Shown piece after piece: positions 3,964 to 41,168 of a DNA stretch of 64,000 nucleotides. The stretch covers positions 15,727 through 79,726 of the forward strand of contig JAGDMK010000001.1 in the NCBI GenBank assembly GCA_017860635.1. Reading direction: 5' to 3'. A model generated the notes under the pieces. The model searched no databases. It saw nothing but the letters and a program-made list of their open reading frames with translations, and was not told the DNA's origin. Numbering within the stretch: the first letter of the stretch is position 1; every line of letters starts with the position of its first letter. The position numbers were made by a program, and so were the translations under genes. This DNA comes from Bacteroidota bacterium (GTDB lineage: Bacteria > Bacteroidota > Ignavibacteria > UBA10030 > UBA6906).

Positions 3964-5745
3964 ATGAAGCCCACATCGTATGCCATCCTGTCCCTTGTGG
4001 TCGTTCTCTGGCATGATGTTGCTTCCGCCAATGGAGGTCAGGTCGCGTGGAGATGGAGAAACGATGACGGCGATGTCTATAGCGCCACGTGGAAAGACTC
4101 TGCAAACACTCCGGTCGTCCTGACGCAGTATGAGAATATCCGACTCAGGATAGAATACCTGGTCGGCGAGGTGAATGTCTGGAGTGTTTCGCTTCGCTAT
4201 ACGGAGTATCCAGATATCAATAGTTCCTGGATTCCGATAACCAGTGTCGATACCGGGAGGTTCTTCATCTCACCATCTCCACATCTCATTGATGCGATGT
4301 CATATTTCGACAACCAACTTCTCCCCCCATACAATCCCGACAATGTGTATCGCAGGACCCTTGCATTCGATTCATCATGCGCCTACCGGATGGTTGATGA
4401 GGAATCCTCTGTTTACGAGCTGGAGTATTCACTGAAGCCGACAATGAACATCCAACCGGGCTCGGCGTATTTCTTCTCTTGTTTCCTGGACGACTCGCCG
4501 ATGAACTCCGGGGCAGATTGGGAGCGTGCTGTTCTTCTGACACCTCCCGTCAGCTGGAGATCACAATCAATAGGCAGACGGTATACGCTCAATGATATCT
4601 TTTTCGTTGATGGGAGTACCGCAACTGCCGTCGGCAGCGGTGGCTCGGGGGGAAGAATATTCAAGACAGTAGACGCTGGAAAGACGTGGATCGATCTGCC
4701 ACTTCCGGCGTGTAAGGGCCTGAGCGCAGTTCAATTCGTGAACGCTGAAGTGGGAGTCGCTGTTGGCTCGGACGGGACAATTCTCAGAACCACGGATGGC
4801 GGGCAGAACTGGTTGTTCGTGGCAAGCACGGACGGCTTCAGATACTTGTCGGGTGTTGCCTTTTCTGATGAACAGAATGGGACAATCGTTGGTGGCTATT
4901 CCGGAGGAGGAGGAGGAATAATGCTTCGTACGACCGACGGTGGTGAGAGCTGGTTTCAACAGCAATGCCCGACCAGCAACTCTCTCCTCTCAGTGTGTTT
5001 CTCAGGCGCAGATCAGGGGATTGCTGTTGGTGCCGCGGGAACTATCGTGAGAACGACAAACGGCGGCGAACACTGGTTCGTGCAATCGAGCGGGACTACA
5101 CGCCGTCTTCGTGATATTTGCTTTTCGGATGCGAACCATGGAACGATTGTTGGTGAAGATAGCGGCAGAGGAGTAGCACTCCGGACATCAGATGGGGGAA
5201 TCACGTGGACATCAGTGCATATCGAAGGGCCTGTACTGAATGCGGTGTGTTTCGCGGACAACAGTACGGGCTGGACGGTCGGAGTCGGTGGCTGGATGTG
5301 CAAGACAACGGACGGGGGACTGAGTTGGAAGAGACTGACGAGCGGTACTTGCCGGTCGTTGTGCTCCGTTCATTTTGTCAACAGCGAAATCGGCTGGGTT
5401 GTGGGCGAGGGCGGGACAATCCTCAGAACCACAAACGGCGGAACAACTTCTGTCGATAATGACAAGCTTCTCACAGTGCCAACAGAGACCGTGCTGCTGC
5501 AGAATTACCCCAATCCCTTCAATCCGAGCACGACCATTACGTACCATCTGCCGAAATCGTCGCACGTGAGGTTGAGCGTGTACGACATGCTCGGTCGTGA
5601 GGTATCAGTGCTGGTGAACGAGAGGCGGGACGCCGGGGCGCACCAAACACGCTTCCAGGCATCGGAGCTGTCAAGCGGTGTCTACTTGTACCGGCTGATG
5701 GCTGGAGAATGCATCCGTACAAAGAAGATGATGGTTCTGCGGTGA
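3964..5745 (+). CDS. Secreted Ycf48/BNR-like beta-propeller protein with T9SS CTD
   Basis: Signal peptide 'MKPTSYAILSLVVVLWHDVASA'. Seven T(T/V)DGG..W Asp-box-like repeats (TVDAGKTW, TTDGGQNW, TTDGGESW, TTNGGEHW, TSDGGITW, TTDGGLSW, TTNGG). C-terminal 'NYPNPFNPSTTITYHLP..VYDMLGREV' CTD. RBS 'aaggagga' precedes the ATG. Confidence 0.8.
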   Translation: MKPTSYAILSLVVVLWHDVASANGGQVAWRWRNDDGDVYSATWKDSANTPVVLTQYENIRLRIEYLVGEVNVWSVSLRYTEYPDINSSWIPITSVDTGRFFISPSPHLIDAMSYFDNQLLPPYNPDNVYRRTLAFDSSCAYRMVDEESSVYELEYSLKPTMNIQPGSAYFFSCFLDDSPMNSGADWERAVLLTPPVSWRSQSIGRRYTLNDIFFVDGSTATAVGSGGSGGRIFKTVDAGKTWIDLPLPACKGLSAVQFVNAEVGVAVGSDGTILRTTDGGQNWLFVASTDGFRYLSGVAFSDEQNGTIVGGYSGGGGGIMLRTTDGGESWFQQQCPTSNSLLSVCFSGADQGIAVGAAGTIVRTTNGGEHWFVQSSGTTRRLRDICFSDANHGTIVGEDSGRGVALRTSDGGITWTSVHIEGPVLNAVCFADNSTGWTVGVGGWMCKTTDGGLSWKRLTSGTCRSLCSVHFVNSEIGWVVGEGGTILRTTNGGTTSVDNDKLLTVPTETVLLQNYPNPFNPSTTITYHLPKSSHVRLSVYDMLGREVSVLVNERRDAGAHQTRFQASELSSGVYLYRLMAGECIRTKKMMVLR

Positions 5746-5794
5746 GCTGGCAGTCACCCTGGATTGTCAATATCTCTGTTGAAAGGAGGATGAG

Positions 5795-7939
5795 ATGAAA
5801 ACGCGTTTCCGCTGCCTCGCAATCGTCCCTGTTCTGCTGTGTCCCTCTGCTTCTGCCCAATGGATACAGACGAACGGACCCTACGGCGGAGATGTGCTGT
5901 GCTTTGCCGCAAGCGGCCCATATGTCTTTGCCGGCACTTCGCGGGGTGGTGTCTTCCTCTCCAGCAATGGCGGCACAAGCTGGACATCGGCGGGTGCAGG
6001 GTTGACGCACTACTCTGTCAATGCGCTTGCTGCGAGCGGTGAATATCTTTTTGCCGGGACCGGTGGTGGTGGCGTGTTTCGTTCGACCAATGGAGGCACA
6101 AGTTGGACTGCCGTGAGTTCCGGCTTGACGTGCCGTGATGTCCGATATCTTGCCGTCAGCGGCACCAATCTCTTTGCCGGGACATGGGGCGACGGTATCT
6201 TACGTTCAACTGACAACGGCACAAGCTGGACCGTCGCAGATTCGGCAGGGGAATGCATATCATCTTTGGCAATCAGCGGCACGAACATCTTTGCGGGTGA
6301 ACCCGGCGTCGGGGGTGGGTGAGGAAATGCCTGGACCCTGGGTGGGGTCCGCCTCTCTACTGATAACGGCACAACCTGGGTCAAAGTCGACAACACGCTG
6401 GGCTGCCGGGATGTGCGTGTTCTGGCTTTGAGTCCTCCTTCCGGCGGAGAGAATGTCCCGAACCTCTTTGCCGGGACTTCCAACGGCGTGTTTCGCTCGA
6501 CCGACTGCGGTGCATGGTGGTCGGGCTCGAGTGTTGGCTTGAGTAGCACTGACATCAGGTCTCTTGCCGTCAGCGGCACAAATCTCTTTGCCGGGACGTG
6601 GGGTGGCGGTGTCTATGTATCGTCCAACAGTGGCGCAAACTGGACACGCATCGATTCTGGCTTGACAAACCGTCGAGTCAGATCGGTTGCCGTCTTCGGC
6701 ACCACTCTCTTTGCGGGAACTGATAGCGGCATCTTCCTCTCTGTGAACAGCGGTACAAGTTGGACTGCCGCCAATTCCGGCTTGACGAGCACGTATGTGC
6801 GATCTCTGGTCGTCAATGGCACAAGTCTCTTTGCCGGGACCGAAGGTGAGGGTGTTTTTCGTTCGACCGACAGTGGCACAAACTGGATCACCGCGAGTTC
6901 CGGTCTGACAAACCCTGATGTCAGATCTCTTGCCTTCGACGACACAATCCTCTTCGCCGGGACTGGCGGCGCCGGCGTCTTTCTCTTGAGAGATGGCGGT
7001 ACAAGCTGGAAGGCGGCGAATGCCGACATGAAAGGCGCTAACGTCTATTCGCTTGCCGTCGGCGGCACAAGTCTCTTTGCGGGGACCGAAGGGGCCTTTT
7101 TCCGTTCCACCGACAATGGCACGACCTGGACCAGGGTAGACTTGCCGAGTGATTGTGTCTGTGCTCTCGCCGTCATCCCCTCCGGCAGCGGGACAGGCGT
7201 TACAGAGGTCTATGCCGGAACCTGGGGGGACGGCGTATTTCGTTCGACCGACAGTGGCAGGAGCTGGACGTCGGCGAGTACCGGTCTGACGAGCACCACT
7301 ATCTTGTCTCTTGCCGTCAATCCCGCCGGTGACGGGACTGGCGCCACAGACCTCTATGCTGGAACCTGGGGGGGCGGCGTATTTCGCTCGCCCCAGAGCG
7401 GCACAAACTGGATGGCAGCAAGTACCGGCCTGACGTGCCCCTCGGTCCACGCGTTTACCGCCTCCGGAAAGAATCTCTTTGCGGGAACGACCAACGGGGT
7501 TTTTCTCTCGACAGATCGCGGCACGTCCTGGACGAATACCAGCTTAACAGACGTATCTGTCCATGGTCTGGCGTGTTCCGGTACGAATCTTTTTGCTGGA
7601 ACTCTTGGGTCCGGTGTGTGGCGGCGTCCGCTCTCGGAGTTGGTTACCCACGTTGAGATGCCACCACTCCGCCCGACTTCATTTGCACTACACCAGAACT
7701 ACCCGAACCCGCTCAACCCGAGCACGACCATCAAGTATGAGTTACCCAAATCATCGGAGGTCAGATTGAGCGTGTTCGATATGCTCGGACAGGAGGTATC
7801 TGTCTTGGTGAATGAGAGGAGGGAGGCAGGAGTTCACGAGGTCAAGTTTGACGGTTCAAATCTTGCGAGCGGAGTGTATTTCTACCGACTACAGGCAGGT
7901 GATTTCGTTGAATCGAAGAAACTCGTGCTTTTGAAATAG
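5795..7939 (+). CDS. BNR/Asp-box ~45-aa-repeat beta-propeller cargo protein with T9SS CTD, interrupted by an in-frame TGA at 6320-6322 (candidate recoded or split gene)
   Basis: ORFs 5795-6322 and 6413-7939 are in the same frame and separated only by TGA, with no other stop in between. The upstream part has the signal peptide 'MKTRFRCLAIVPVLLCPSASAQW'. The downstream part has ~12 'NLFAGT.GGGVFRSTDNGTSWT' repeats and the CTD but no signal peptide of its own. Confidence 0.6.
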
Positions 7940-7969
7940 TATCAGGTGATACTAACTAAAAATAGACGT

Positions 7970-8155
7970 GGCCACAGACATACAAGGCCAGCGATTGTAT
8001 CCAAGGTTGTCAGCGAAGCCGCAAGAGATTCCGGCTTTGTCATTTTCTCAACCGATAGTGTTCCGGCGAATTGAAAGCCGATGGTCGCCAAATTGTAGAC
8101 CGGAAGTTGAGTTGGTCTACAAAAAGCGTCGTGCAGAAACATTAGAATTTGGGAA
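7970..8155. repeat. DE copy 2 (truncated)
   Basis: About 90% identical to 1836-2020, including the 'gccggaagagattccggc' and 'ggtcgccaaattgtagacc' hairpins. Confidence 0.7.
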
Positions 8156-8280
8156 GCCTGGTTCAGCGGGATGGATCGACTCAATGGGTCAGGACTTGGG
8201 TCAGTTCCGACGCTCCTTGTCCTGGGACTACGATGTGAAGCGCAACACCCAGCCACTTAGACAGTCGGAGAGCCATTCAC

Positions 8281-8512
8281 TGCTGTGAAAAAGGCACAAT
8301 TGATAGTTTCTTCCGCATAATTGGTGGCAAAACCGCCTCCGGAGGCATTATCTTTCCGGCATCGACTAATTGATGACCCACACACGCTCCGGACTCGATG
8401 AGGGAGTCGGTGCGCCGCCGAGTGTTTCTGCTTTATCGTCGTACCGACGACCCACCGACTACCATCTCAAATAAGTAATCTCCGACAGCGTTTGCGTTGA
8501 AAGGAGGCCAAG
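8281..8512 (+). promoter_or_regulatory. Conserved upstream leader (UL) of BNR/beta-helix cargo paralogs ('ggcacaattgatagttt..gcataattggtggc....gagtcggtgcgccgccgagtgtttc....gcgttgaaaggagg')
   Basis: Homologous blocks lie at 10753-10995 and 16262-16481. 3' halves lie at 13306-13430, 17748-17883, 20100-20186 and 5760-5794. Each ends in the RBS 'aaaggagg' immediately before the ATG. Confidence 0.5.
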
Positions 8513-10729
8513 ATGACGACTCAATTCATCTGTCTTGCACTCGTCATTGTTCTGCTTTGCCCCTGTGTGCCAGCCCAATGGGTCCAAACGACCGGTCCTG
8601 GTGGTGGTAATATCGGCGCCATTGCCGTCAGTGGCACGAATGTGTTTGTGGGGACAGGCTTCCCCTTTTTTGGTGTTCACAATGCCGGTGGTGTCTTTCG
8701 CACAACGGACGATGGAGCAAGCTGGACCGCGGCCAACTCTGGTCTAACGGACATGTGCATCGGTTCTCTTACGGTCAGTCCCGCCTCCGACGGGGCAGGT
8801 GGGGTGAATCTCTTCGCAGGGACTCTCTGCGGTGGAGTCTTACGCTCCACCGACAACGGGACAAGCTGGACTGCTACAAGTTTGACGAGTGCGTTTGTCA
8901 CCTCTTTTGCCGTCAGTGGCACAAATCTCTTTGCGGGGTCCCCCGGACCTACGTGATATGGTGGTGAGACCCCAGGTGGGGTCTATCGTTCAACGGACAA
9001 TGGTAGCACCTGGACTGCGGCTAGCTCAGGTCTATCGAACTCGGTTGTCCGTTCTCTTGCCATCAGCGGGACGAATCTCTTCGCGGGGACTGACGGCGGT
9101 GTGTTTCTTTCTACCAACAACGGGATGAGTTGGAGTTCGGCCAATAGCGGTCTGCCCCTCCCGGACCAGTTCGGCAATGTTGCTAGTGTCATGTGTTTTG
9201 CGGTCAGCGGCGCGAATCTCTTTGCGGGCACTGGTGGTGGCGGGGTCTTTCTTTCCACGAACAATGGGACAAGCTGGACAGAAGCCGGCTTGACAAATAG
9301 TCGAGTTGGTGCTCTTGCTGTCTCCGGCACGAATCTCTTCGCGGTGACAGGCAGGTTTCTTGACAGTGGAGTCGTCTTTCGTACCACGGACAATGGTACA
9401 AACTGGACTGCGGCTAGTTCAGGCCTGCCGAACATGTGGGTCCGGTGTCTTGCTGTCAAAGGGACGAATCTCTTTGCATGCGGTGACGGCGGTGTGTTTC
9501 TATCCAGTGACAGCGGCACAAGCTGGAGTTCGGTCAACGCTCGTCTACCGAACACGGAGGTCTCGTCTCTTGCTGCCGCTGGGACAAATCTCTATGCGGG
9601 GACACGCCATTTCGCCGGTTACACTCTAGCCGTCTTTCTTTCAACCGATTTCGGGACAGACTGGGTCGTGTACAACGAGGGTCTGACAGACACGAGGGTC
9701 AGGGTTCTTGTTGCCAGTGGGATGTATCTTCTTGCTCAGAATGATAGCGGCGGTGTCTTTCTTTCCAGGGATAGCGGCAAAAGCTGGACCACGGCTAGCT
9801 CAGGTCTGACGAACACGTATGTCAGCTGTCTTGCTGTCAGCACATCCTCCGACGGGACAGGTGGTACGAATCTCTTTGTGGGGACTGGGTACGACGGTGT
9901 ATTTGTTTCCACCAATAACGGTACAAACTGGAATGCGGTCAACTCTGGTCTAGCCAACACTCGTGTATTGTCTCTTGCAGTCAGCGGGACAAATCTCATT
10001 GCAGGCACGGAAGGCGGCGTGTTTCTTTCCACGAACAGGGGAACAAGCTGGAGTCCTGTCAAATCAGGTCCAATAGGTACGTATGTGAATTCCCTTGTTG
10101 TTGGCGGGGCGTATATCTTTGCGGGGACTTACAATGCTGGTGTCTTTCTTTCCACTAATAGTGGGGTAAACTGGACTGCGGTCAATAGTGGCCTCCCAAA
10201 AGACCAGAACGGCATTCTGCCCCATGTCATGTGCTTTGCTGTCAGCGGCGCTAATCTCTTTGCGGGAACTGACGGCGGTGTCTTTTGTACAACCAACGAC
10301 GGCGTAAGCTGGACTGCCGTCAATACCGGTCTGACAAACACTTCTGTCGAGGCACTCGCCGTATCGGGCGCGTATCTCTTTGCAGGCACTGATGGGGCAG
10401 GTGTGTGGTGCCGCCACTTGTCGGAAATGATTACCTCGGTTGAGCCCGTGGTGACCGAATTACCGCACGAGTTCTTTGTCCAACAGAACTACCCCAATCC
10501 CTTCAATCCGAGCACGACCATCACGTACGCGCTACCTAAGTCTTCAGAAGTCAAATTGAGTGTCTTTGACATGCTGGGTCGTGAGGTCTCTGTCTTGGTA
10601 GGCGAGAGCAAAGATGCGGGGGTCCACCAGGTCAAGTTTGACGGTTCGAATCTTGCGAGCGGAGTGTATTTCTACAGATTAAAGGCGGGAGTTTTCGTAG
10701 CGACGAAACGACTGCTTTTACTAAGATGA
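8513..10729 (+). CDS. BNR/Asp-box repeat beta-propeller cargo protein with T9SS CTD, interrupted by an in-frame TGA at 8954-8956
   Basis: ORFs 8513-8956 and 9101-10729 are in the same frame with no other stops between them. Signal peptide 'MTTQFICLALVIVLLCPCVPAQW'. Many 'NLFAGT..GVFLSTNNGTSW' repeats. CTD 'NYPNPFNPSTTITYALP'. Confidence 0.6.
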
Positions 10730-10752
10730 AATGGGCACCAGGCGCACACTGC

Positions 10753-10995
10753 CAGCAGTTTTCTGCTGTGAAAAAGGCACAATTGATAGTTTCTTACGCA
10801 TAATTGGTGGCAGAACCTCCCTCGGGGGCATTATCTTGTCACCATCGAACAATACATGCCCCACACACGCTCTGACTTGACACAAGAGTCGACGCGCCGC
10901 CAAGTGTTTCTACAATATCGTCTCACCCGACGGCCTACCGAGTCCTGCCTCAAGTCAGTACTCTCCTATAGCAGTCGCGTTAAAAGGAGGACAAG
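10753..10995 (+). promoter_or_regulatory. UL copy upstream of the beta-helix cargo gene
   Basis: About 80% identical to 8281-8512 and ends in 'gcgttaaaaggaggacaagATG'. Confidence 0.5.
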
Positions 10996-13305
10996 ATGAG
11001 AACCCCCACCACCTGTCTCGCACTCGCATTTGTCCTTCTACTCCCCTTTGCATGTCCACTGTGGGGTCAGCCCGACACACATGTTCTGAACGTGGAAACG
11101 GAAGTTCCTGCAGGTCCTGTAAGCGGTGTGTGGACGTTGGCAGGCTCTCCCTACCACGTCAACGGGACCGTAACAATTCCGAACGATTCAACACTCATAA
11201 TAGAGCCTGGGGTGGAAGTCGTTTTCATGGGGCACTACAAATTGAATGTTGAGGGAAGACTGCTCGCTATTGGATCATTCAGTGATTCAATCCGATTCAG
11301 GGCCGTGGATACACAAACTGGCTGGCACGGGATACGGTTTGTCAACACTCCGAATACCAATGACACTTCCAAGATTGTCTATTGTGTCCTGCGCAACGGC
11401 AAGGGGAACACAGGGACCGGTTTCGACAGATGCGGTGGTGCGATGCTCATTGCCCAGTTCGACAAGGTCTTAGTTTCCAATTGTCTCTTTGATTCCAACA
11501 TGCAAACCTTTGAGGGTTGGAACGATCTTCTTCCCCAAGCTGGTCCAGCGATCTACATATATCATGCCTCACCAACAATATCACAGAGTACCTTTACACA
11601 TCATGTAGGTTCCCTGGGTAGCGCAATTAGCTGTCTACGTTGTCCCCATCCCATCATATCCAGGAATGTCTTTACAGAGAATCTCGGCATGGGTGGCCCC
11701 GTCGTTGCTCGTGAGATTGGCAGCCCCATCATATCCGGAAATGCCATCTATGGCAACATCGCTACGTATGCTGCAGGCGGGATTGCTGTCGAAGCGGGAG
11801 CGACTCCTAGGATTGAAAACAATATCATCGTTCATAATCGGGCACCGTTTGCAGGCGGCATCTGGTGTGCAAGTGGGACAAACGTAGTGCTCCTGAACAA
11901 TACTATCGCCTATAACACTGCTACTGACCGAGGGGGCGGCATTGATTGTGATGAGAATACCGACGCAATTCTTATCAACAATATCCTCTACGGAAATACC
12001 GCCGCTTATGGGAGTCAAGTAAATGTTGTTGATGTCCAATCAGATCCTGTGTTCCTGTACTGTAATATCCAGGGAGGGAAGGCGGGATTTGCGGGTACCG
12101 GAGCCGGAGCCAACTATACCGGGCTCTACAAAGACAACATTGTCATTGACCCCTTGTTCGTGAATGCAGCCGCGGGCGATTTTCGCCTTTCGGACTCTTC
12201 TCAGTGTATCGGTTCTGGTATCGACAGTATCGAAATATCAGGGGTGTGGTACTACTCTCCTCTCTTTGCCTTTGGGGGAAATGTCCGTCCAAACCCCGCC
12301 GGTTCAAGGCCGGATATTGGCGCGTGGGAGAGCATTCTGGGTTATCCAGTGACCGGTCTGAGGTACCCACATGATGTGAGACTCTCACGATGTGGACGGG
12401 ATACCCTGAGGATCACCGCACGGCTTGAGAACCCGCTTGCGCACGCTGTAGTTGTTACGGGCACACTGACTGCGGGCACGGGTGCGCTCATCGACAGCGT
12501 GTTCCTAAAGGATGATGGCCTCCACGGCGACGGCACATCGGCCGATGGGTTCTGGGGATGCCACTATGTCCCCAAGAAGGACGACACGATCAATGTGACT
12601 ATTCGAAAGGATGACTTGACTGCAGGAGCGTCATTGACGTTACCAACTGCCGCTACCTGCGTATTCACGCGAGGTCCGATTCTTAGTGTTGACACGAGGA
12701 CTGTAAATTTCCGCCAGATCGCCAATACCCTTCAGAGCCGCGACACGACATTCATGGTGCGAAATGTCGGCTACGCTGAAGACTCCGTCTATGTGACTCT
12801 GGATTATGTGAATGTGACGCCGGATTCGGCCATTGCTGTCTCTCCCGTGCAGTTTGTGCTTGCTGCGGGGGATTCTGCGAAGTTGACATTCCTGATTCGG
12901 CCACAACTCCTGGTCCCGCAATACTATTATGCATTGGTCCTCGTGCAATCCCGATTCGGTTTTGCTGATGTACTCTTCTCAAAATCGATGCTGTTCCAGG
13001 TGGTTGTCGGCACCAATGCCCCGGCGTCCGAAGAGCTGCCCGGGCAGTTCGCGCTGGATCAGAACTACCCCAATCCCTTCAATCCGAGCACGACCATCAC
13101 GTACGCGGTGCCTACGGCATCGGAAGTCAAGTTGAGCGTCTACGACATGCTCGGTCGCGAGGTGTCAGTGTTGGTGAATGATAGGAAGGATGCGGGAGTT
13201 CATGAGGTGCAGTTCGAGGCTTCAGGACTATCCAGTGGAATGTATTTCTACCGACTGCAATCGGGAGACTTAGTCCAATCGAGGAAACTGACGCTTTTAA
13301 AGTGA
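10996..13305 (+). CDS. Right-handed parallel beta-helix (pectate-lyase-like, PbH1 repeats) secreted protein with Ig-like domain and T9SS CTD
   Basis: Signal peptide 'MRTPTTCLALAFVLLLPFACPLWGQ'. Repeated 'NN.I..N.A..GGGI' PbH1-type turns. Its N-terminal ~130 aa and a ~120-aa C-proximal block are paralogous to the 20187-22754 protein. It shares an Ig-like 'YVNVTPDSAIAVSPVQF..YYYA' module with gene 1-1825. CTD 'NYPNPFNPSTTITYAVP'. Confidence 0.75.
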   Translation: MRTPTTCLALAFVLLLPFACPLWGQPDTHVLNVETEVPAGPVSGVWTLAGSPYHVNGTVTIPNDSTLIIEPGVEVVFMGHYKLNVEGRLLAIGSFSDSIRFRAVDTQTGWHGIRFVNTPNTNDTSKIVYCVLRNGKGNTGTGFDRCGGAMLIAQFDKVLVSNCLFDSNMQTFEGWNDLLPQAGPAIYIYHASPTISQSTFTHHVGSLGSAISCLRCPHPIISRNVFTENLGMGGPVVAREIGSPIISGNAIYGNIATYAAGGIAVEAGATPRIENNIIVHNRAPFAGGIWCASGTNVVLLNNTIAYNTATDRGGGIDCDENTDAILINNILYGNTAAYGSQVNVVDVQSDPVFLYCNIQGGKAGFAGTGAGANYTGLYKDNIVIDPLFVNAAAGDFRLSDSSQCIGSGIDSIEISGVWYYSPLFAFGGNVRPNPAGSRPDIGAWESILGYPVTGLRYPHDVRLSRCGRDTLRITARLENPLAHAVVVTGTLTAGTGALIDSVFLKDDGLHGDGTSADGFWGCHYVPKKDDTINVTIRKDDLTAGASLTLPTAATCVFTRGPILSVDTRTVNFRQIANTLQSRDTTFMVRNVGYAEDSVYVTLDYVNVTPDSAIAVSPVQFVLAAGDSAKLTFLIRPQLLVPQYYYALVLVQSRFGFADVLFSKSMLFQVVVGTNAPASEELPGQFALDQNYPNPFNPSTTITYAVPTASEVKLSVYDMLGREVSVLVNDRKDAGVHEVQFEASGLSSGMYFYRLQSGDLVQSRKLTLLK

Positions 13306-13430
13306 ATTGTGACTCGAAGTGGGAGTCGGTGCGCCGTCAGGTGTTTCCGAGGTACCGGTCTACCTGATGATACGCTAATATCCTGCGGGCGCCAGGCTCT
13401 TGCGATTCTGTTGCGCTGAGAGGAGGCAAA

Positions 13431-13550
13431 AATGAGAAGCCACTCACTCTGTCTCGTACTCGCCGTCGTTCCGCCTTGTCCCCGTGCGTTCGCTCAATGG
13501 GAGGGAGCCGGGGAAATGCAGTGTAGTTGTGAAGCCGGTTACAGGAGATG
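13431..13550 (+). pseudogene. Remnant 5' end (signal peptide only) of a BNR-family cargo paralog, fused upstream of the M1 peptidase gene
   Basis: Preceded by a UL 3' half and RBS 'gagaggaggcaaaaATG'. Encodes 'MRSHSLCLVLAVVPPCPRAFAQWEGAGEMQCSCEAGYRR*'. This matches the family signal peptide and then terminates after 39 codons. Confidence 0.5.
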
Positions 13551-15566
13551 AGTATGAAACGAACCATCGTGCTGCTTCTGATGGGTTGCTGCGCTGCGGC
13601 ACCGGCGGTGTGCGAGCAACTCCAGCGTCCCTCATTCGAATTGAACAAAGAAACACTAGTGAAAAGTGAAGCGCGGCGCTACGCGCTGCTAAGGGGGGCG
13701 CTTCGCAAACCCGCCTCCGACCCGAATATTGACGTCACATACTACAAACTCGATCTTACCATCACGACAACCCCCAACTATCTGAGGGGGGTAGTCACGA
13801 TGAATGCACTCAGCGTGGTCGCCAGTCTTACGGCCGTCACGCTCGACCTCATGAAGAGCATGACCGTTGACTCAGTGAAATCTGGCGGCACGCAGCTCGC
13901 TTTTGTACAGCAATCAGCGACAATGACGGTCACACTTGACCGCAGCTATATCAACGGCGAACTCGTCACAATGGATATCTACTATCGTGGTGTGCCGGGA
14001 AGCAGCGGATTCGGCAGTTTCACGTTCAGCTCTTACGATTCCATGCCGTGGATCTTTACGCTCAGCGAGCCGTACGGTGCAAGGGATTGGTGGCCGTGCA
14101 AGGATCATCCTGCGGACAAAGCAGATTCGGTGGACCTCTGGGTCACGGTGGACAGCACCCTCAAAGTCGGGTCAAACGGAAGACTTGTTGAGGTGATCGA
14201 CAATACAAATGGTACGAAAACCCACCGCTGGAAAGAGCAGTATCCAATCAGTACATACCTCGTTTCCCTCGCGGTCGGAGACTATGCTGAATTCACCAAT
14301 TGGTTCAAATATTCCCCGACCGATTCCATGCCGGTGTTGAACTATGTCCTTCCCGAACATCTCACTGAGGCGCAGAGAGATTTGCCGAAGACCGTGGATA
14401 TGCTGAAGATTTATTCGAATGTCTTCGGCCTGTATCCTTTCATTAACGAAAAGTACGGACATTCCGAGTGCGACTTGCGCGGAGGAATGGAAAACCAAAC
14501 CATGACGTCCCTCGGCGGGTTCTGGTTCTTTGGCATCTTTATTGGGTTCAGTGATGAACTTGTTGCGCACGAGCTTGCCCATATGTGGTTTGGAGACATG
14601 ATCACATGTGCTGATTGGCCGAACATCTGGATGAATGAAGGTTTTGCGACGTACTGCACGGCACTTTACTATGAATGCATGTACGGCACGTCAAGGTACA
14701 CAGAATACATGAGTTCGCTAATGGGCCGAGCGAAAAGCGCTGTCGGTTCTCTCTACGTTCGCGATACCCTCAACACCCTGTTCGACTTCAATCGTGTGTA
14801 TGCCAAGGGCGCTTCAGTTCTTCATATGCTCAGGCATGTTATGGGAGATACACTGTTTTTCCGGTCGCTCAGGGCGTATGCACAAGACTCCCGTTTCAGA
14901 TTCGCCGTGGCGACGACAGAAGACTTCAGGCAGGTATGTGAGAATGTGTCCGGGAGCCAACTCGGCTACTTCTTCGATGAATGGGTATACGGTGAGAGTT
15001 ATCCTCGTTACACCTGCACGTGGAAACGTGAGCAAGGTGTGTCAGGTTATGATGTCACATTCCGTCTCAGCCAAACGTCAGGTGCAACAACAGGTCCCAC
15101 GTTCTTCTCTATGCCCATGGATTGCAGGCTTGCCTGCACCGGGTGGGATACAACTGTGGCGCTCTTCCATTTCTCGGATGGTCAGCAATTCACCGTGACG
15201 ACATCACATATGCCGGACACACTTCAACTTGACCCGGACAATTGGATCCTCCGCGAGATTCAAGTAGTCCTATCCACACCGAACGACGCATCGGAGTTAC
15301 CCAAAACGTTTGCTTTGCACCAGAACTACCCCAATCCCTTCAACCCGATCACGACCATCACGTACGAGTTGCCCAAGTCTTCACAAGTGAACTTGAGTGT
15401 CTACGACATGCTCGGACGGGAGGTGTCAGTGCTTGTGAACGAGAGAAGGAACGCGGGAGTTCACGAAGTGAAGTTTGACGGCTCTGGTCTTGCGAGCGGA
15501 TTGTATCTATACCGGTTTCAGGCTGGCGATTTCGTGGCGACGAAGCGACTCCTGTTCTTGAAGTGA
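13548..15566 (+). CDS. M1-family zinc aminopeptidase (gluzincin) with T9SS CTD
   Basis: 'GGMEN' exopeptidase motif and 'HELAHMWFGD..(18)..WMNEGFATY' HExxH-E zinc signature. Signal peptide 'MKRTIVLLLMGCCAAAPAVC'. CTD 'NYPNPFNPITTITYELP'. Confidence 0.8.
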   Translation: MSMKRTIVLLLMGCCAAAPAVCEQLQRPSFELNKETLVKSEARRYALLRGALRKPASDPNIDVTYYKLDLTITTTPNYLRGVVTMNALSVVASLTAVTLDLMKSMTVDSVKSGGTQLAFVQQSATMTVTLDRSYINGELVTMDIYYRGVPGSSGFGSFTFSSYDSMPWIFTLSEPYGARDWWPCKDHPADKADSVDLWVTVDSTLKVGSNGRLVEVIDNTNGTKTHRWKEQYPISTYLVSLAVGDYAEFTNWFKYSPTDSMPVLNYVLPEHLTEAQRDLPKTVDMLKIYSNVFGLYPFINEKYGHSECDLRGGMENQTMTSLGGFWFFGIFIGFSDELVAHELAHMWFGDMITCADWPNIWMNEGFATYCTALYYECMYGTSRYTEYMSSLMGRAKSAVGSLYVRDTLNTLFDFNRVYAKGASVLHMLRHVMGDTLFFRSLRAYAQDSRFRFAVATTEDFRQVCENVSGSQLGYFFDEWVYGESYPRYTCTWKREQGVSGYDVTFRLSQTSGATTGPTFFSMPMDCRLACTGWDTTVALFHFSDGQQFTVTTSHMPDTLQLDPDNWILREIQVVLSTPNDASELPKTFALHQNYPNPFNPITTITYELPKSSQVNLSVYDMLGREVSVLVNERRNAGVHEVKFDGSGLASGLYLYRFQAGDFVATKRLLFLK

Positions 15567-15612
15567 GCGCGATATCAGATATAGTCCAGCAGTAGTCTTA
15601 TCATACGCGCTC

Positions 15613-15890
15613 GTTGAAGCCGGAAGAGATTCCGGCTTCTTCATTACTCAGCCGACAGTGTTCAGAGCAATCGAAAATCGATGGTCTACAATCTGTAGAC
15701 CAAAGAGCGAGTTGGTCTACAAAAAGCAAGGTGCACAAACATTCGAAATCGGGAATCGGGTAGTGTTCACAAGAGTTTCCCGTCGTTCGACTCTTGACGC
15801 TGAATCGCCAGTACCATTCGAATCATTTAGAATCCTCCCTGCCTGCCGGCAAGCAGGGATTTTCAGTATTGCATCCTCAATCAGCCCCCC
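15613..15890. repeat. DE copy 3, including a terminator-like hairpin 'ccctgcctgccggcaagcaggg' followed by 'attttc'
   Basis: Homologous to the other DE copies. Lies directly downstream of the M1 peptidase stop codon. Confidence 0.7.
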
Positions 15891-15961
15891 CCAGCCAGGG
15901 TTTTCTCTTCCATGCAGAACCCACTTGCCGCCTGAACCTGGCCCTGATACGCTTTCCCCAT

Positions 15962-16112
15962 CCCGTCGTTGAAATTGCCTCTGAGCTGGGGTATATTTGG
16001 CAGTTGTGCTCACGATGGCTCCTTCAGCCATCGAGCCGCCGCTGTTTGACCCTGTAGTAGTTCTACCGCTCTAGAGCCTTCCCCGACGACCCCTGGCTGC
16101 GAGCTTCAAAAT
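15962..16112 (+). promoter_or_regulatory. PE copy 3: TTGAAA(15969-15974)-N17-TATATT(15992-15997) followed by the conserved hairpin RNA
   Basis: Same architecture as 2225-2372. The 'GATGGCTcc..AGCCATC' stem is conserved. Confidence 0.5.
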
Positions 16113-16171
16113 AGCCCAAAATCCTCATCCGGTAAGAAAACGAGACGGTTCGATTCAGCCGTCAGTTCTGG

Positions 16172-16190
16172 CCCCCCCCCGGGGGGGGGG
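16172..16190. repeat. Homopolymeric palindrome C9G10
   Basis: 'gccccccccc gggggggggg' is a perfect self-complementary homopolymer tract in intergenic DNA. Confidence 0.9.
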
Positions 16191-16261
16191 TAGGGGATCA
16201 CTATCTAAGATGTAAAGCCCAGTGTCACAACAAGATGCGGAGCAATTGTCGCCCTTGAGTA

Positions 16262-16481
16262 GGGCACAATTGATAGTTTATCACGCAGGAGTGGTGGAAA
16301 AGCATCCCCCAAAGGCGTTATCATAGAATCGTCGGCGAAGGCGCTCCCGAAGCGCGTTCTGACTTCATGGAGGAGTGAATGTGGCGTCTCATTTCTCGTG
16401 GCGCTGTCCTTTCCGACGATAGATCGAGTCCAACTTCTAGTCAATGATTTTCTCCTTCATCTGCGTTCAAAGGAGGAAGAA
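16262..16481 (+). promoter_or_regulatory. UL copy (divergent) upstream of BNR cargo gene 16482
   Basis: 'gggcacaattgatagttt' then 'gcgttcaaaggaggaagaaATG'. Confidence 0.45.
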
Positions 16482-17729
16482 ATGAGAGCCCAACCCATTT
16501 GGCTCGCTTTTGTGCTCCTGTTGTCCTGTTCCTGCGTGACAGCCCAATGGATTCAAACCTCCCTTGACAGTTGTAGCATCCATTGTTTTGCCGTAATCGG
16601 TACGAACCTCTTTGCCGGCACTTGGAACTGCGGCGTCCTACTTTCGACCAACAGTGGCGCAAGTTGGACACAGGTCAACAATGGCTTGCCGGACAGCCCT
16701 GTTGAGGCTCTCGCAGTCTCCGGCACAAGCCTGTTCGCGGGGACCAATGACAGCGGGGTCTTCCTTTCGACTAACAGTGGCGGCACCTGGAAAGAAGTCA
16801 GCTCAGGACTGTCGAAGAGATACAACAAAGCCCTGGTTGTGAGTGGCACAAGACTCTTTGCCGGGTCTTGGGACCAGGGTGTCTTTCTGTCAACAGACAG
16901 CGGTACCAGCTGGTCTGCAGGAAGCGAAGGACTACCCGAAGGTCCACCCAGATATCCCAGCATTGAAGCTTTTGCCCTAATTGGCACAAGTCTCTTTGCC
17001 GGAACATACGGGCATGGTGTCTTTCGCACGACATGCGATGGCGCTAGCTGGACAGAGGTCAATTCCGGTTTAATCGGAAATGACATTGGCTGTCTCGCTG
17101 TACTCGGTGCAAATCTCTTTGCTGGAACAGTGTTTTGGAGTCGTGGCAGTGTCTATCGTTCCACCAACAATGGTGAAAGCTGGACTGAGGCTGATTCCGG
17201 CTTACCGGGAGCCAGTGTCGCATCTCTTGCCGGCTCAGACGGGATTCTACTAGCTGGAACTGAAACAGGTGCGAGGGGCAGTGTCTTCTTGTCTACCAAC
17301 TTTGGTGCATGCTGGTCTGAGTTTAGCTCCGGCCTGCCGAATACTGCTGTCAATTCCTTGGTTATCTCGGCTCTGCATATTTTCGCCGGGACTCCCATTG
17401 GCGTCTGGAGACGACCTTTGTCAGAAGTTGTTGCGGCGGTCGACGCAGGGACAGACGACCTGGCAGATGCGCTCTTGCTTCAGCAGAACTATCCGAACCC
17501 GTTCAATCCCAACACGACCATCAGGTACGAATTGCCCGTATCCTCAAATGTCAGGTTGAGTGTGTACGACATGCTTGGACGCGAGGTGTCGATGTTGGTC
17601 AACGAGAAGAGAGATGCAGGAGTTCACGAGGTGCAGTTTGGTGGGTCGAATCTCGCGAGCGGAGTGTATCTCTATCGACTGCAAGCGGGTGATTTTGTCC
17701 AGTCGAAGAAGCTCGTGATTTCAAAATAA
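16482..17729 (+). CDS. BNR/Asp-box repeat beta-propeller cargo protein with T9SS CTD (intact paralog, no internal stop)
   Basis: Signal peptide 'MRAQPIWLAFVLLLSCSCVTAQW'. Repeats 'SLFAGTNDSGVFLSTNSGGTW' etc. CTD 'NYPNPFNPNTTIRYELP'. RBS 'aaaggagg'. Confidence 0.8.
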   Translation: MRAQPIWLAFVLLLSCSCVTAQWIQTSLDSCSIHCFAVIGTNLFAGTWNCGVLLSTNSGASWTQVNNGLPDSPVEALAVSGTSLFAGTNDSGVFLSTNSGGTWKEVSSGLSKRYNKALVVSGTRLFAGSWDQGVFLSTDSGTSWSAGSEGLPEGPPRYPSIEAFALIGTSLFAGTYGHGVFRTTCDGASWTEVNSGLIGNDIGCLAVLGANLFAGTVFWSRGSVYRSTNNGESWTEADSGLPGASVASLAGSDGILLAGTETGARGSVFLSTNFGACWSEFSSGLPNTAVNSLVISALHIFAGTPIGVWRRPLSEVVAAVDAGTDDLADALLLQQNYPNPFNPNTTIRYELPVSSNVRLSVYDMLGREVSMLVNEKRDAGVHEVQFGGSNLASGVYLYRLQAGDFVQSKKLVISK

Positions 17730-17883: not shown

Positions 17884-20046
17884 ATGAGGAGCCAATTCAT
17901 GGGCATAGCGCTCGCCGTGGTTCTCGTTTGCGCCTGTGCGCCCGCTCAATGGATACGAACCAACGGACCTTATGGTGGCTACGTCCACGCATTTGCTGCC
18001 AATGACACCAATCTTTTTGCGGCCACTTATGGCAGCGGTGTCTTTCTCTCCACTAACCATGGCAACAGCTGGACGCCGGCCAGCACAGGTTTGACGAACA
18101 GGGGCGTGAATACGCTTGCATTCAGCGGCACGAATCTCTTCGCCGGGACTGAGGGCGATGATGTCTTTCTCTCAACGAACAACGGTGAAAGCTGGACTGC
18201 CGTCAGCACTGGCTTGACGAATCAGTATATCTATGCCCTTGCTGTCTCCGGCACGAATCTCTTTGCCGGAGGTGGCGGCGTATTTCTTTCAACAAACAAT
18301 GGCACAAGCTGGAGTGCGGTCACAACGGGGTTGCCGACGGGATATGATGTCAGAGCTCTCGCCGTTTCCGGGACGAACCTTTTTGCAGGGACTTCTGGCA
18401 ACGGCGTCTTTCTCTCCACCGACAATGGCACCAACTGGACGCCGGCAAATGCGGGCTTGGAGCGCGCTAGTGTCTATGCTCTCGCCATCTCGGGGACGAA
18501 TCTCTTTGCTGGGACTTGGGGTAGTGGGGTCTTTCTTTCGACTGACAACGGCACAAGCTGGTCTTCGGCGAGTACAGGTCTGGTGAGTACATGTATTGTT
18601 GCCCTGGCCATTAGCGGGACCAACCTGTATGCGGGGGCAAGCCCCTCGTGAGGTAGTGCCCCGGCCTCAGGTGGGGTCAATGTTTCGACAGATAACGGAG
18701 CAAGCTGGAGAGCAGTCAATACCGGCTTGACGAATATGTATGTCTTAGCTCTTGGTGTCTTTGGGACGGATCTCATTGCCGGGACTGATGGCGATGGAGT
18801 CTTTCTCTCCACGAACAACGGTGAAATCTGGACAGCTGTCAACACAGGAATAACCAACACAGGTATCAACGTCATCGCTAGGAGCGATACAAATCTCTTC
18901 GCAGGGGCTCATGAGATGGGTATCTTTCTCTCCACAAACAATGGTGATAGCTGGACATCGGTCAGTGCAGGATTGGCGAACATGACTGTTAATGCTCTTG
19001 CATTTAGCGGCACAAGCGTTTTTGCGGGGACAGCGGGTGGAGTCTTTCTCTCCACGAACAACGGTTCAAGCTGGACGGCCGTCAGCGCATGGAGCGGGGA
19101 TGTCTGTGCCTTGTCTGTCAGCAACATGAATCTCTTTGCGGGGACTCATGGTGGCGTCTTTCGCTTCACCAACAATGACAGTAGGTGGACCGCAGTCGAC
19201 ACGCGTTTGACGAACGGGCCTGTCTTCGCGCTTGCTTCCAGCGACGGGTATCTTTTTGCGGGCACTGATCTTGGCGTATTTCGCTCCACGAACGATGGCA
19301 GTAGCTGGACAGCGGTCAACGCGGGTCTACCCGATAGGATGAATGTCCGTGATTTAGCTTTCAGCGGCACCAACCTTTTTGCGGGAACAGCTGAGTACGG
19401 TGTCTTTCTGTCTACAGACAATGGTGATAGTTGGACAGCCGTGAACACAGGCTTAGTCAACACGTGCGTGCAAGCGCTTGCAGTCGCCGGCACAAACCTC
19501 TTCGCGGGGACTGCTTTCCACGGTGTCTTTCTGTCTACAAACAATGGTAACAGTTGGACAGCCGTGAACTCAGGCTTAGCCAACACGGACGTGAAAGCGC
19601 TTGCTGTCAGCGGCGCCAACCTCTTCGCGGGAACAGCTGGAATATATATGCTTTCAGGTCGTTTTGGTGGTGGCGTGTGCAGACGACCTCTCTCAGAGAT
19701 GATTACTTCCATCGGAACCATCACAAACGGTCTCCCCGAAGAGTTCTTGCTCCATCAGAACTACCCAAACCCCTTCAACCCGAGCACCACCATCAAATAC
19801 GAGTTGCCTGCATCGTCTGATGTCAAACTGAGTGTGTACGATGTGCTTGGTCGTGAGGTGTCAGTATTAGTGAATGAGAGAAGGGATGCGGGAGTTCACG
19901 AAGTGAAGTTTGACGGTTCTGGTCTTGCGAGCGGATTGTATTTCTACCGATTACAGGTCCGCCCTCTGGACTCCGCCATCGAGCGAGACTCCAAGAGCGG
20001 AGCTGGCGATTTCGTAGCGACGAAACGACTCCTGTTATTGAAGTAA
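17884..20046 (+). CDS. BNR/Asp-box repeat beta-propeller cargo protein with T9SS CTD (CTD variant with an 18-aa insertion), interrupted by an in-frame TGA at 18649-18651
   Basis: ORFs 17884-18651 and 18727-20046 are in the same frame with no other stops. Signal peptide 'MRSQFMGIALAVVLVCACAPAQW'. CTD 'YRLQVRPLDSAIERDSKSGAGDFVATKRLLLLK'. Confidence 0.6.
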
Positions 20047-41154: not shown

Positions 41155-41168
41155 TCATCGGACCCTTT

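What the first reader, a model, noticed from the sequence alone, without database searches (positions are those of the whole stretch)
8940..8990. Second paralog (8513-10729) has an in-frame TGA at the equivalent position with the same +18-nt GGTGGGGTC hairpin
ORFs 8513-8956 and 9101-10729 share a frame. The read-through sequence is '..FAGSPGPT*YGGETPGGVYRSTDNGSTW'. Exactly 11 nt after the TGA lies 'GACCCC-AGGU-GGGGUC', a 6-bp perfect stem with an AGGU loop. This is the spacing of the E. coli fdhF minimal SECIS. The six codons between the TGA and GGV are entirely different from locus 1, yet the TGA, the 18-nt spacing and the 9-mer are conserved.
Basis: seen in the sequence. Interest (0 to 1): 0.8.

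Follow-up and report, generated by a model that had tools for sequence, protein, structure and literature searches.

The report
Probable selenocysteine codon in secreted propeller
A stop codon inside a secreted beta-propeller gene of an uncultured Ignavibacteriota bacterium is followed by a conserved RNA hairpin that matches the bacterial signal for inserting selenocysteine, which points to an undescribed family of secreted selenoproteins, although the organism's selenocysteine machinery could not be checked.

Summary
ORF 8513-10729 is a single tandem beta-propeller protein with a signal peptide and a T9SS sorting domain, broken by one in-frame TGA (8954-8956). A 7-bp hairpin with an AGGU loop starts 11 nt after the TGA. 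Two paralogs in the window (TGA at 6320 and 18649) have the same layout. The 9-mer GGTGGGGTC occurs only three times in 64 kb, each time 18 nt after one of these TGAs.

Orthologs from at least six other assemblies keep both the TGA and the hairpin. Sequence downstream of the TGA is under purifying selection (dN/dS 0.18-0.36). Synonymous change is suppressed in the 16 codons after the TGA. Twenty-four other blades in the same genes, and 116 Cys-codon look-alikes elsewhere, lack the hairpin.

The element meets all four criteria of the published bacterial SECIS consensus. It places G-G-U at positions 22-24, as in E. coli fdhF. TGA is otherwise the commonest stop codon in the window.

Best reading: SelB/SECIS-directed selenocysteine insertion, defining a new secreted selenoprotein family (confidence about 0.7).

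Three things are unproven. No selA/B/C/D could be examined. Cultured Ignavibacteria lack these genes. No orthologous Cys form was found.

The parts
8513..10729 (+). Full recoded gene (paralog 2): 738-codon tandem beta-propeller (BNR/Asp-box, Sortilin-Vps10-like repeats) with an N-terminal signal peptide and a C-terminal T9SS sorting domain, interrupted by one TGA
   Evidence: Translation. Pfam hits Sortilin-Vps10, BNR and Por_Secre_tail. NCBIfam hit Por_Secre_tail. dN/dS 0.33 upstream and 0.35 downstream of the TGA against the ortholog in L007.
8513..8578 (+). Predicted signal peptide (MTTQFICLALVIVLLCPCVPAQ); limits are approximate
   Evidence: Read from the sequence; hydrophobic core followed by AQ-W, conserved in all paralogs. 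Inference only; no predictor was run.
8954..8956 (+). In-frame TGA, the proposed Sec (U) codon, at the tip of an extended loop between the 'NLFAG' and 'GGVY' strands of blade 3
   Evidence: Conserved in orthologs L007, L142 and L143, and inferred for P0117.
8967..8984 (+). SECIS-like hairpin: 7-bp stem (8967-8973 pairs with 8978-8984) and AGGU loop (8974-8977); -13.1 kcal/mol
   Evidence: It lies within a 55-nt block (ACG TGA plus 49 nt) that is perfectly identical between orthologs that are 72% identical overall.
8975..8983 (+). GGT GGG GTC: the Gly-Gly-Val codons of the blade motif, which also form the loop GGU and the 3' arm of the hairpin
   Evidence: None of the 19 other GGV motifs in the BNR genes uses this codon triplet.
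10490..10711 (+). T9SS type A C-terminal sorting domain (residues 660-733)
   Evidence: Pfam PF18962; TIGR04183.
5795..7939 (+). Paralog 1: same architecture. TGA at 6320-6322; hairpin 6332-6351 (8 bp, loop GGGU at 6340-6343); 9-mer at 6341-6349
17884..20046 (+). Paralog 3: same architecture. TGA at 18649-18651; in-register hairpin 18663-18678 (6 bp with 2 G-U pairs, loop AGGU at 18669-18672); 9-mer at 18670-18678
   Evidence: Orthologs L122, L129 and L130 keep the TGA and a 6-7 bp stem.

Best explanation
The TGA at 8954-8956 is a recoded sense codon, most probably selenocysteine. As the ribosome approaches, the mRNA hairpin 11 nt downstream acts as a bacterial SECIS. The hairpin has a 6-8 bp G+C-rich stem and an apical loop N-G-G-U, with G22, G23 and U24 counted from the U of UGA. 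SelB carrying Sec-tRNA(Sec) would bind the loop and deliver Sec to the UGA in competition with release factor 2.

The product is a full-length protein of about 740 residues: signal peptide, two seven-bladed beta-propellers and a T9SS sorting domain. It would be exported through Sec and then the type IX secretion system. The selenocysteine would sit at the tip of an enlarged strand B-C loop on one face of the N-terminal propeller.

The 3' arm and the loop are built from the Gly-Gly-Val codons of the blade motif. The variable six codons before them are constrained to pair with that arm. Two tandem paralogs (TGA at 6320 and 18649) work the same way.

Shown here: the conserved UGA, a hairpin selected at the nucleotide level, and a translated downstream frame. 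Inferred: SelB binding, Sec as the inserted residue, and any redox or metal-binding role of the residue.
For: 1. All three TGA-split BNR genes carry GGTGGGGTC exactly 18 nt after the TGA, and the 9-mer occurs nowhere else in 64 kb.
2. In-register hairpins of 6-8 bp, -8.3 to -13.1 kcal/mol, occur in 7 loci. Two further orthologs, L142 and L143, show 7- and 6-bp stems by direct reading.
3. All four bSECIS consensus criteria quoted in PMC13188914 are met: loop of 3-9 nt, stem of 4-16 bp, G then G/U at the start of the loop, 16-37 nt from UGA to loop, and MFE <= -7.5.
4. E. coli fdhF, read directly, has loop G22 G23 U24 C25 and an upper stem starting at G15. The GGU is in the same register.
5. Orthologs in Ignavibacteriota MAG MFD05942.bin.1.74 (L007/L018), MAG MFD09964.bin.3.183 (L122) and metagenome contigs L129, L130, L142 and L143 all keep the TGA and the hairpin. 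Five N-terminal fragment clusters at 71-100% identity end at the same residue.
6. L2 and L007 are 72% identical in nt, yet the longest identical run (55 nt) is ACG-TGA plus 49 nt. The next longest run is 24 nt.
7. dN/dS is 0.15-0.36 on both sides of the TGA. pS in codons +1 to +16 is 0-0.145, against 0.43-0.67 for the downstream part of the gene, while amino acids there do change.
8. Specificity controls: 24 other blades in the same genes pair 0-1 bp in register. Of 116 Cys-codon matches to the same protein pattern, 5 have >=5 bp and none has the 9-mer. None of the 19 other GGV motifs uses these codons.
9. No in-frame start codon exists for 48, 30 and 25 codons after the TGAs of loci 2, 1 and 3, yet the Asp-box STDNGxxW at codons +12 to +19 is intact. 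Gene callers chose 512, 534, 565 and 574 aa for the downstream piece.
10. TGA is the normal stop here, used by 19 of 32 genes including conserved CTD ends. Recoding is therefore site-specific.
11. Homologs carry Cys exactly 6 residues before GGV in similarly enlarged loops: L055 AGT-C-NDMFGI-GGV, P0228 AGT-C-GDDNSL-GGV, and L060 and L072.
Against: - No selA, selB, selC or selD was found in the window, in about 17.6 kb of added flank, or in any fetched locus of this lineage. The whole genome could not be searched.
- Peng et al. 2016 Table S1 lists Ignavibacterium album and Melioribacter roseus as lacking SelD, SelA and SelB. The Sec trait is only sporadic in Bacteroidetes.
- No orthologous Cys-for-Sec pair was found. 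The Cys loops are in paralogous blades of proteins 31-46% identical, and most homologs lack the loop altogether (81 of 115).
- There is no CxxU/UxxC or thioredoxin-like context.
- Folding z-scores against shuffles are not significant, and locus 3's in-register hairpin is not its MFE structure.
- The hairpins lack the unpaired U seen in the fdhF upper stem.
- Only 7 distinct hairpin sequences are known. One pair shows two-sided covariation, and that pair (14/31) is unpaired in 3 of them.
- There is no Rfam or NCBIfam match to a selenoprotein or SECIS family.
Confidence: 0.7

Rival explanations
1. The UGA is recoded with the help of the hairpin, but not as canonical selenocysteine. Options include stimulated read-through by a near-cognate or suppressor tRNA (Trp, Cys, Gly or Arg), or SelB-like delivery of Cys by a tRNA(Sec)-like tRNA, in a lineage that lacks the standard Sec pathway.
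For: The evidence for recoding does not identify the amino acid. Cultured Ignavibacteria lack SelD, SelA and SelB. No Sec genes were seen in any DNA fetched for this lineage. The glycine-rich loop context (GGG*G in paralog 1) would accept Gly.
Against: The element matches SelB-type SECIS features in detail, including GGU at positions 22-24. From my own knowledge, no hairpin-stimulated stop-codon read-through of this kind is established in bacteria. The base after the UGA is not conserved (G, U or A), which argues against a simple leaky-context mechanism. TGA is the main stop codon, so a general suppressor tRNA would be costly.
Confidence: 0.13
2. Termination at the TGA is the main functional outcome. 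The gene yields a short secreted N-terminal fragment of 3-6 blades, and the downstream part is expressed separately or only rarely. The hairpin would modulate termination or mRNA stability.
For: Annotation pipelines call a 147-aa protein (MBP1655419.1, 'BNR/Asp-box repeat protein'). Sec insertion competes with release factors, so some truncated product is expected in any case (my own knowledge).
Against: A partial propeller of 3-6 blades is unlikely to fold. The downstream part lacks a signal peptide and any in-frame start for 25-48 codons, yet it is under purifying selection in the same frame, including the Asp-box directly after the TGA. The T9SS sorting domain is useless without the N-terminal signal peptide on the same chain. 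Called downstream starts are inconsistent.
Confidence: 0.07
3. The conserved block is a DNA-level feature, such as a recombination or gene-conversion patch or a mobile insertion carrying a stop. Alternatively, the genes are pseudogenes.
For: The three paralogs are tandem and could exchange sequence. The 55-nt perfect identity between orthologs could reflect recent transfer. A related contig (that of P0117) carries transposase and integrase fragments near such genes.
Against: The paralogs share only the TGA, the 9-mer and the pairing, not a block of sequence. L3-type orthologs differ at amino-acid level inside the element while keeping the pairs. dS between orthologs is 0.5-1.7 with intact frames of 1.4-1.8 kb downstream and dN/dS of about 0.15-0.36. 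This is incompatible with pseudogenes that old. There are no flanking repeats or indel signature. The loop is an in-frame extension of a normal blade.
Confidence: 0.04
4. Genome-wide reassignment of UGA (genetic code 4 or 25: UGA = Trp or Gly).
For: The loop context is glycine-rich.
Against: 19 of 32 genes in the window terminate with TGA, several exactly at the conserved end of the T9SS domain, including this gene itself. Only these three in-frame TGAs interrupt recognisable genes in 64 kb. The other candidates were judged to be adjacent genes or opposite-strand ORFs from the coordinates alone and were not examined one by one.
Confidence: 0.01

Closest known systems
E. coli fdhF SECIS and the bacterial SECIS consensus (bSECISearch model of Zhang & Gladyshev, as summarised in PMC13188914)
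   Same: The hairpin lies inside the coding region directly after the UGA. The upper stem starts 11-12 nt after the codon. The apical loop is small, and G-G-U occupies positions 22-24 exactly as in fdhF. All four consensus criteria are met. The UGA can pair into a lower helix in some copies.
   Different: The stems are perfect, with no unpaired U in the upper stem. The loop is NGGU closed by C-G or U-G, whereas fdhF has GGUC. The 3' arm is fixed by a repeat-motif tripeptide (GGV). SelB binding is untested.
Catalogued bacterial selenoprotein families (111 families and subfamilies in BSepDB, PMC13326102; inventory in PMC13188914; NCBIfam selenoprotein models)
   Same: An in-frame UGA conserved among orthologs with a downstream SECIS-like hairpin. 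Homologs with Cys in comparable loops exist.
   Different: No listed family is a BNR/beta-propeller or a T9SS cargo. There were no text hits for BNR, sortilin, propeller, T9SS or secret and no NCBIfam selenoprotein hit. Most known families have a thioredoxin-like fold and a redox motif. Here the residue sits alone in a Gly/Pro/Ser-rich surface loop.
GH74 xyloglucanases and PorZ (tandem seven-bladed beta-propellers)
   Same: The AF2 model of the Cys-loop homolog P0228 (pLDDT 86.7) superposes on GH74 enzymes at TM about 0.62 and on the T9SS component PorZ at 0.54. Size and Asp-box repeats are similar.
   Different: Only 15-19% identity. There is no Pfam or NCBIfam GH74 assignment, and the best NCBIfam hit (F510_1955 glycosylhydrolase) is below its cut-off. 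Catalytic residues were not examined. None of these proteins is known to contain Sec.
Omp28-related selenoprotein (NCBIfam NF045500) and the Sec-type SelD in a WOR-3-like, T9SS-bearing MAG (L097)
   Same: They show that selenocysteine decoding, and possibly cell-envelope selenoproteins, occur in T9SS-bearing relatives of Bacteroidota.
   Different: Unrelated fold and a different lineage. The L097 Omp28-family gene scores below that model's cut-off. This says nothing direct about the window's organism.

Membership tests
Bacterial SECIS (consensus model) | Apical loop of 3-9 nt on an upper stem of 4-16 bp | tested here: met
   4-nt loop and 6-8 bp stem in all 9 loci. Criterion quoted.
Bacterial SECIS (consensus model) | G in one of the first two loop positions, usually followed by G or U | tested here: met
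   Loops are AGGU or GGGU. G22, G23 and U24 are invariant.
Bacterial SECIS (consensus model) | 16-37 nt between the UGA and the apical loop | tested here: met
   17 nt (positions 4-20) in every copy.
Bacterial SECIS (consensus model) | Hairpin free energy <= -7.5 kcal/mol | tested here: met
   -8.3 to -13.1 kcal/mol for the in-register hairpins of the 7 loci computed.
Bacterial SECIS (consensus model) | Bound by SelB-GTP-Sec-tRNA(Sec) | not testable with these tools
   Needs biochemistry, or at least a selB gene in the genome.
E. coli fdhF-type minimal SECIS | Upper stem-loop about 11 nt after the UGA, with GGU at positions 22-24 | tested here: met
   fdhF read from NC_000913.3: stem from G15, loop G22 G23 U24 C25. 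Here the stem starts at 14/15 and the loop is N21 G22 G23 U24.
E. coli fdhF-type minimal SECIS | Unpaired (bulged) U in the 5' arm of the upper stem | tested here: not met
   fdhF folds with U18 unpaired. All hairpins here are uninterrupted. That the bulge matters for E. coli SelB is from my own knowledge.
Selenoprotein gene (bioinformatic criteria) | In-frame UGA conserved in orthologs from other organisms | tested here: met
   L007/L018, L122, L129, L130, L142, L143; fragment clusters P0016, P0039, P0082, P0117.
Selenoprotein gene (bioinformatic criteria) | Coding signal continues in frame past the UGA | tested here: met
   Downstream dN/dS is 0.18-0.36, and the Asp-box is intact before any possible restart codon.
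Selenoprotein gene (bioinformatic criteria) | Homologs with Cys aligned to the UGA (Cys/Sec pair) | tested here: inconclusive
   Cys sits 6 residues before GGV in enlarged loops of L055, L060, L072 and P0228, but in other blades of distant paralogs. No ortholog with a sense codon appears among the best 120 hits. Most homologs have no loop.
Selenoprotein gene (bioinformatic criteria) | selA, selB, selC (tRNA-Sec) and selD in the same genome | not testable with these tools
   None in the window, the flanks or the fetched loci. A SelD search returned only WOR-3-like and unrelated genomes. The whole genomes cannot be read here. Cultured relatives lack these genes.
T9SS type A cargo | N-terminal signal peptide plus C-terminal Por_Secre_tail domain on one polypeptide | tested here: met
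   PF18962 at 1.3e-10 and TIGR04183 at 2e-12. The signal peptide was read from the sequence. This holds only if the TGA is read through.
GH74 glycoside hydrolase | Tandem seven-bladed propellers with a catalytic Asp pair in the inter-domain cleft | tested here: inconclusive
   The fold matches for homolog P0228 (TM 0.62). There is no family-level sequence match. Catalytic residues were not examined.
Genome-wide UGA reassignment (codes 4 and 25) | UGA not used as a terminator | tested here: not met
   19 of 32 genes end in TGA.

The most novel reading that the evidence does not exclude
The hairpin-dependent recoding of UGA operates in a lineage that, like its cultured relatives, has no selA/selB/selC. 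That would mean either a SECIS-like element driving Sec-independent insertion of another residue, or a non-canonical delivery system, in three tandem secreted propeller genes.
Probability: 0.1. Interest if true: 0.9.

Novelty: new member of a known kind. Interest (0 to 1): 0.6.

Why it matters
If the reading is correct, these genes define a selenoprotein family unlike the catalogued ones in four ways.

- The proteins are cargo of the type IX secretion system and so act outside the cell.
- They have a tandem beta-propeller fold instead of a thioredoxin-like fold.
- The selenocysteine sits alone on a surface loop.
- They occur in Ignavibacteriota, whose cultured members have no selenium-utilisation genes.

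This would extend both the taxonomic range and the structural contexts in which Sec is used. It would also raise the question of what an exposed selenol does on a secreted propeller. Possibilities include a selenylsulfide staple, metal or substrate capture, or covalent attachment.

On the practical side, current annotation splits each gene into a 147-255 aa 'BNR/Asp-box repeat protein' and an N-terminally mis-started fragment. The pattern UGA-N18-GGUGGGGUC gives a simple way to find and repair such genes.

The element also shows how a repeat-motif tripeptide (Gly-Gly-Val) can be co-opted as half of a SECIS.

Tried and rejected
**Rejected explanations**
- Sequencing or assembly error. Rejected because 8 independent contigs are identical at the site.
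- Genome-wide code change. Rejected because TGA is the main stop codon.
- Pseudogene. Rejected because of the dN/dS values and the intact long frames across dS of 0.5-1.7.

**Searches that found nothing**
- Rfam scan of 5700-20100 at E<=10 gave no SECIS or other relevant family.
- A covariance model of the element, searched over 385 kb of related loci, found no copies beyond the input sequences.
- The literature search found no BNR or T9SS selenoprotein. PMC12013261 (Haft & Tolstoy 2025) is not held.

**Hunt for the Sec machinery (no result)**
- Pfam scans of 30 window ORFs.
- tRNA scans.
- tblastn of E. coli SelA, SelB and SelD against all fetched DNA. The only hits were a SelD in the unrelated L097 and a GTPase fragment.
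- Extending the contig by 10 kb on one side and about 7.6 kb on the other.
- A protein search with the L097 SelD, hoping to hit the 3,025,578-bp Ignavibacteriota contig. It returned only WOR-3-like and unidentified genomes.

**Searches with limited yield**
TGA-bearing genomes are therefore under-sampled.
- The metagenome scan gave only 8 hits, of which 2 were real.

**Structure prediction**
A Cys-loop homolog was modelled instead.

Full report
**What is there.** Window 8513-10729 (+) translates as one 738-codon protein with a single internal stop...NLFAGSPGPT*YGGETPGGVYRSTDNGSTW.... Pfam and NCBIfam find Sortilin-Vps10/BNR (Asp-box) repeats and a C-terminal type IX secretion sorting domain. 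The N-terminus reads as a signal peptide.

The TGA is at 8954-8956. After 11 nt comes A-GACCCC / AGGU / GGGGUC-U, a 7-bp hairpin of -13.1 kcal/mol.

Two further genes in the window have the same architecture and the same interruption:
- 5795-7939, with its TGA at 6320.
- 17884-20046, with its TGA at 18649.

The 9-mer GGTGGGGTC occurs three times in 64 kb, each time starting 18 nt after one of these TGAs. A degenerate protein-level pattern finds exactly these three sites, against zero expected. The minor corrections are listed under the observation check.

**It is not an artefact, a code change or a dead gene.**
- Eight independently assembled contigs from several metagenomes carry the identical TGA and hairpin.
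- TGA is the commonest terminator in the window (19 of 32 genes). Several of those TGAs sit exactly at the conserved end of T9SS domains, including this gene's own stop.
- Orthologs exist in other organisms: a 3.03-Mb contig of Ignavibacteriota MAG MFD05942.bin.1.74 (L007/L018), MAG MFD09964.bin.3.183 (L122), and metagenome contigs L129, L130, L142 and L143. All have the TGA at the same residue.
- Between orthologs, dS is 0.5-1.7 and dN/dS is 0.15-0.36 on both sides of the TGA. The downstream 1.4-1.8 kb has therefore been kept as protein in the same frame since those lineages split.
- No in-frame ATG, GTG or TTG occurs for 48, 30 and 25 codons after the TGAs of paralogs 2, 1 and 3. Yet the Asp-box STDNGxxW at codons +12 to +19 is intact everywhere. 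Gene callers pick inconsistent starts for the downstream piece.
- A signal peptide at one end and a T9SS sorting domain at the other only make sense on a single chain.

**The hairpin is selected as RNA.**
- L2 and its L007 ortholog are 72% identical in nucleotides. The longest perfectly identical run in the gene is 55 nt, made of ACG-TGA plus the next 49 nt. The next longest run is 24 nt.
- Across ortholog pairs, the synonymous difference in codons +1 to +16 is 0-0.145, against 0.43-0.67 for the downstream part of the gene. Amino acids in that stretch do change.
- Counting from the U of UGA, every copy pairs positions 15-20 with 25-30 around a loop N21-G22-G23-U24. Pair 14/31 is U-A, A-U or G-C in four of seven distinct sequences and unpaired in three. 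Pairs 16/29, 19/26 and 20/25 switch between Watson-Crick and G-U.
- The wobble bases U24, G27 and C30 of the Gly-Gly-Val codons are invariant. The 19 other GGV motifs in the window's BNR genes use eleven other codon combinations and never this one.
- Controls show the hairpin is specific to the TGA blades. Twenty-four other blades of the same genes pair 0-1 bp in the same register. Of 116 Cys-codon matches to the same protein pattern in public genomes, five reach 5 bp and none has the 9-mer.
- Plain folding energy against shuffles is not significant in this G+C-rich context. The argument rests on register, conservation and specificity.

**Comparison with SECIS.** The review PMC13188914 gives four criteria for the bacterial consensus:
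- a loop of 3-9 nt on a stem of 4-16 bp;
- a G in the first two loop positions, usually followed by G or U;
- 16-37 nt between the UGA and the loop;
- MFE <= -7.5 kcal/mol.

The elements here have a 4-nt loop, (A/G)GGU, a 6-8 bp stem, 17 nt of spacing, and -8.3 to -13.1 kcal/mol. All four criteria are met.

I read E. coli fdhF from NC_000913.3. Its UGA is at codon 140, its upper stem starts at G15, and its loop is G22 G23 U24 C25, with U18 unpaired. The GGU is thus at the same three positions. The bulged U is absent here.

Rfam has no matching model.

**What could not be shown.**
- The Sec machinery was not found in the window, in about 17.6 kb of extra flank, or in any fetched locus. The tools cannot read a whole MAG.
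- A SelD search seeded from a Sec-type SelD that turned up by chance in a WOR-3-like T9SS-bearing MAG (L097...AAG*ASK...) returned no protein from the Ignavibacteriota contigs.
- Peng et al. 2016, Table S1, lists Ignavibacterium album and Melioribacter roseus as negative for SelD, SelA and SelB. In that group the Sec trait appears only sporadically, for example in Dyadobacter, Cyclobacterium qasimii and Chryseobacterium taeanense.
- No ortholog with a sense codon at the site was among the best hits.
- Most homologs lack the enlarged loop (81 of 115). A few distant paralogs carry Cys exactly six residues before GGV in a similar loop: L055, L060, L072 and P0228. This is suggestive but is not a true Cys/Sec pair.

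**Protein context.** An AlphaFold model of the Cys-loop homolog P0228 (pLDDT 86.7) shows two seven-bladed propellers plus the sorting domain. It is closest to GH74 xyloglucanases (TM about 0.62) and also resembles PorZ. The enlarged loop joins the 'SLLAGT' and 'GGVFL' strands of a blade.

By analogy, the U of paralog 2 sits at the tip of the strand B-C loop of blade 3. In paralog 1 it is in blade 4, and in paralog 3 in blade 6. Candidate selenylsulfide partners are a conserved Cys in the preceding blade loop of paralog 2 (GTLCGG) and a conserved Cys in the preceding strand of paralogs 1 and 3 (STC(V/I)VALA, ECISSLA). This is inference only.

The window is dense in T9SS cargo genes and has a weak, sub-threshold match to PorV.

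**Novelty.** No selenoprotein inventory, database description or NCBIfam model that I could search mentions a BNR/propeller or T9SS-secreted selenoprotein. NCBI annotates the N-terminal piece as an ordinary 147-aa protein. The mechanism would be the known SelB/SECIS one, and the family and its setting would be new.

**Verdict.**
- Site-specific recoding of the UGA with a nucleotide-selected, SECIS-like hairpin is strongly supported.
- Selenocysteine as the inserted residue is the best explanation (about 0.7), but it awaits detection of selA/B/C/D in these genomes or direct protein evidence.

Noticed in passing
L097:6860-7936 (+), genome contig CAYPNB010000007.1: A SelD gene with an in-frame TGA at the active-site position (MEKRLIDYARAAG*ASKVCQ...), i.e. 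a Sec-type SelD. It lies in a T9SS-bearing MAG whose SelD relatives are labelled candidate division WOR-3. Its neighbours are an Omp28-family lipoprotein gene, which weakly matches NCBIfam 'Omp28-related selenoprotein', and an ArsM-like methyltransferase gene.
   Followed up: partly
window 44063-44560 (+): An uninterrupted MsrB (SelR domain, E 3e-51) gene. MsrB is a selenoprotein in some organisms. Here it has no in-frame TGA, so presumably it is the Cys form.
   Followed up: no
window 20-59059 (+) and 59130-60164 (-): An unusually dense run of at least 15 T9SS cargo genes with Por_Secre_tail domains. They include BNR and Kelch propellers, a beta-helix protein, M1 and M4 peptidases, DUF4397 and a GlcNAc-2-epimerase-like protein. 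A weak, sub-threshold PorV match (24.7 bits against a cut-off of 27) is also present. All share a near-identical C-terminal ...NYPNPFNPSTTI...LLLLK ending.
   Followed up: partly
JGI 3300075153 contig of P0117 (7,649 bp; DNA not retrievable): The contig has three separate 140-147 aa N-terminal-fragment genes, one followed by a 597-aa piece, interspersed with rve_3 transposase and phage-integrase fragments and a HepT/MNT toxin-antitoxin pair. This may be several TGA-split paralogs in a rearranged region.
   Followed up: no
window 6260-6322, 18590-18651, 8820-8850: A Cys is conserved 17-20 residues upstream of the TGA in paralogs 1 and 3 and in all L3-type orthologs (ECISSLAISG, STC(V/I)VALA(V/I)SG). 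Paralog 2 and its orthologs instead keep a Cys in the previous blade's loop (GTLCGGV). These are candidate partners for a selenylsulfide bond.
   Followed up: partly
window 41094-41154: The histidine ammonia-lyase ORF (41094-42686) overlaps the end of the histidyl-tRNA synthetase ORF (39691-41154) by 61 nt. The longest-ORF start is probably too far upstream, since no gene with exactly this product is on record.
   Followed up: no
window 8954-8992 and 6321-6355: In paralogs 2 and 1 the MFE fold adds a lower helix below the hairpin. In paralog 2 this helix pairs the UGA itself (U1-A39, G2-C38, A3-U37), reminiscent of the long form of the fdhF SECIS. The register of this lower helix differs between copies.
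   Followed up: partly
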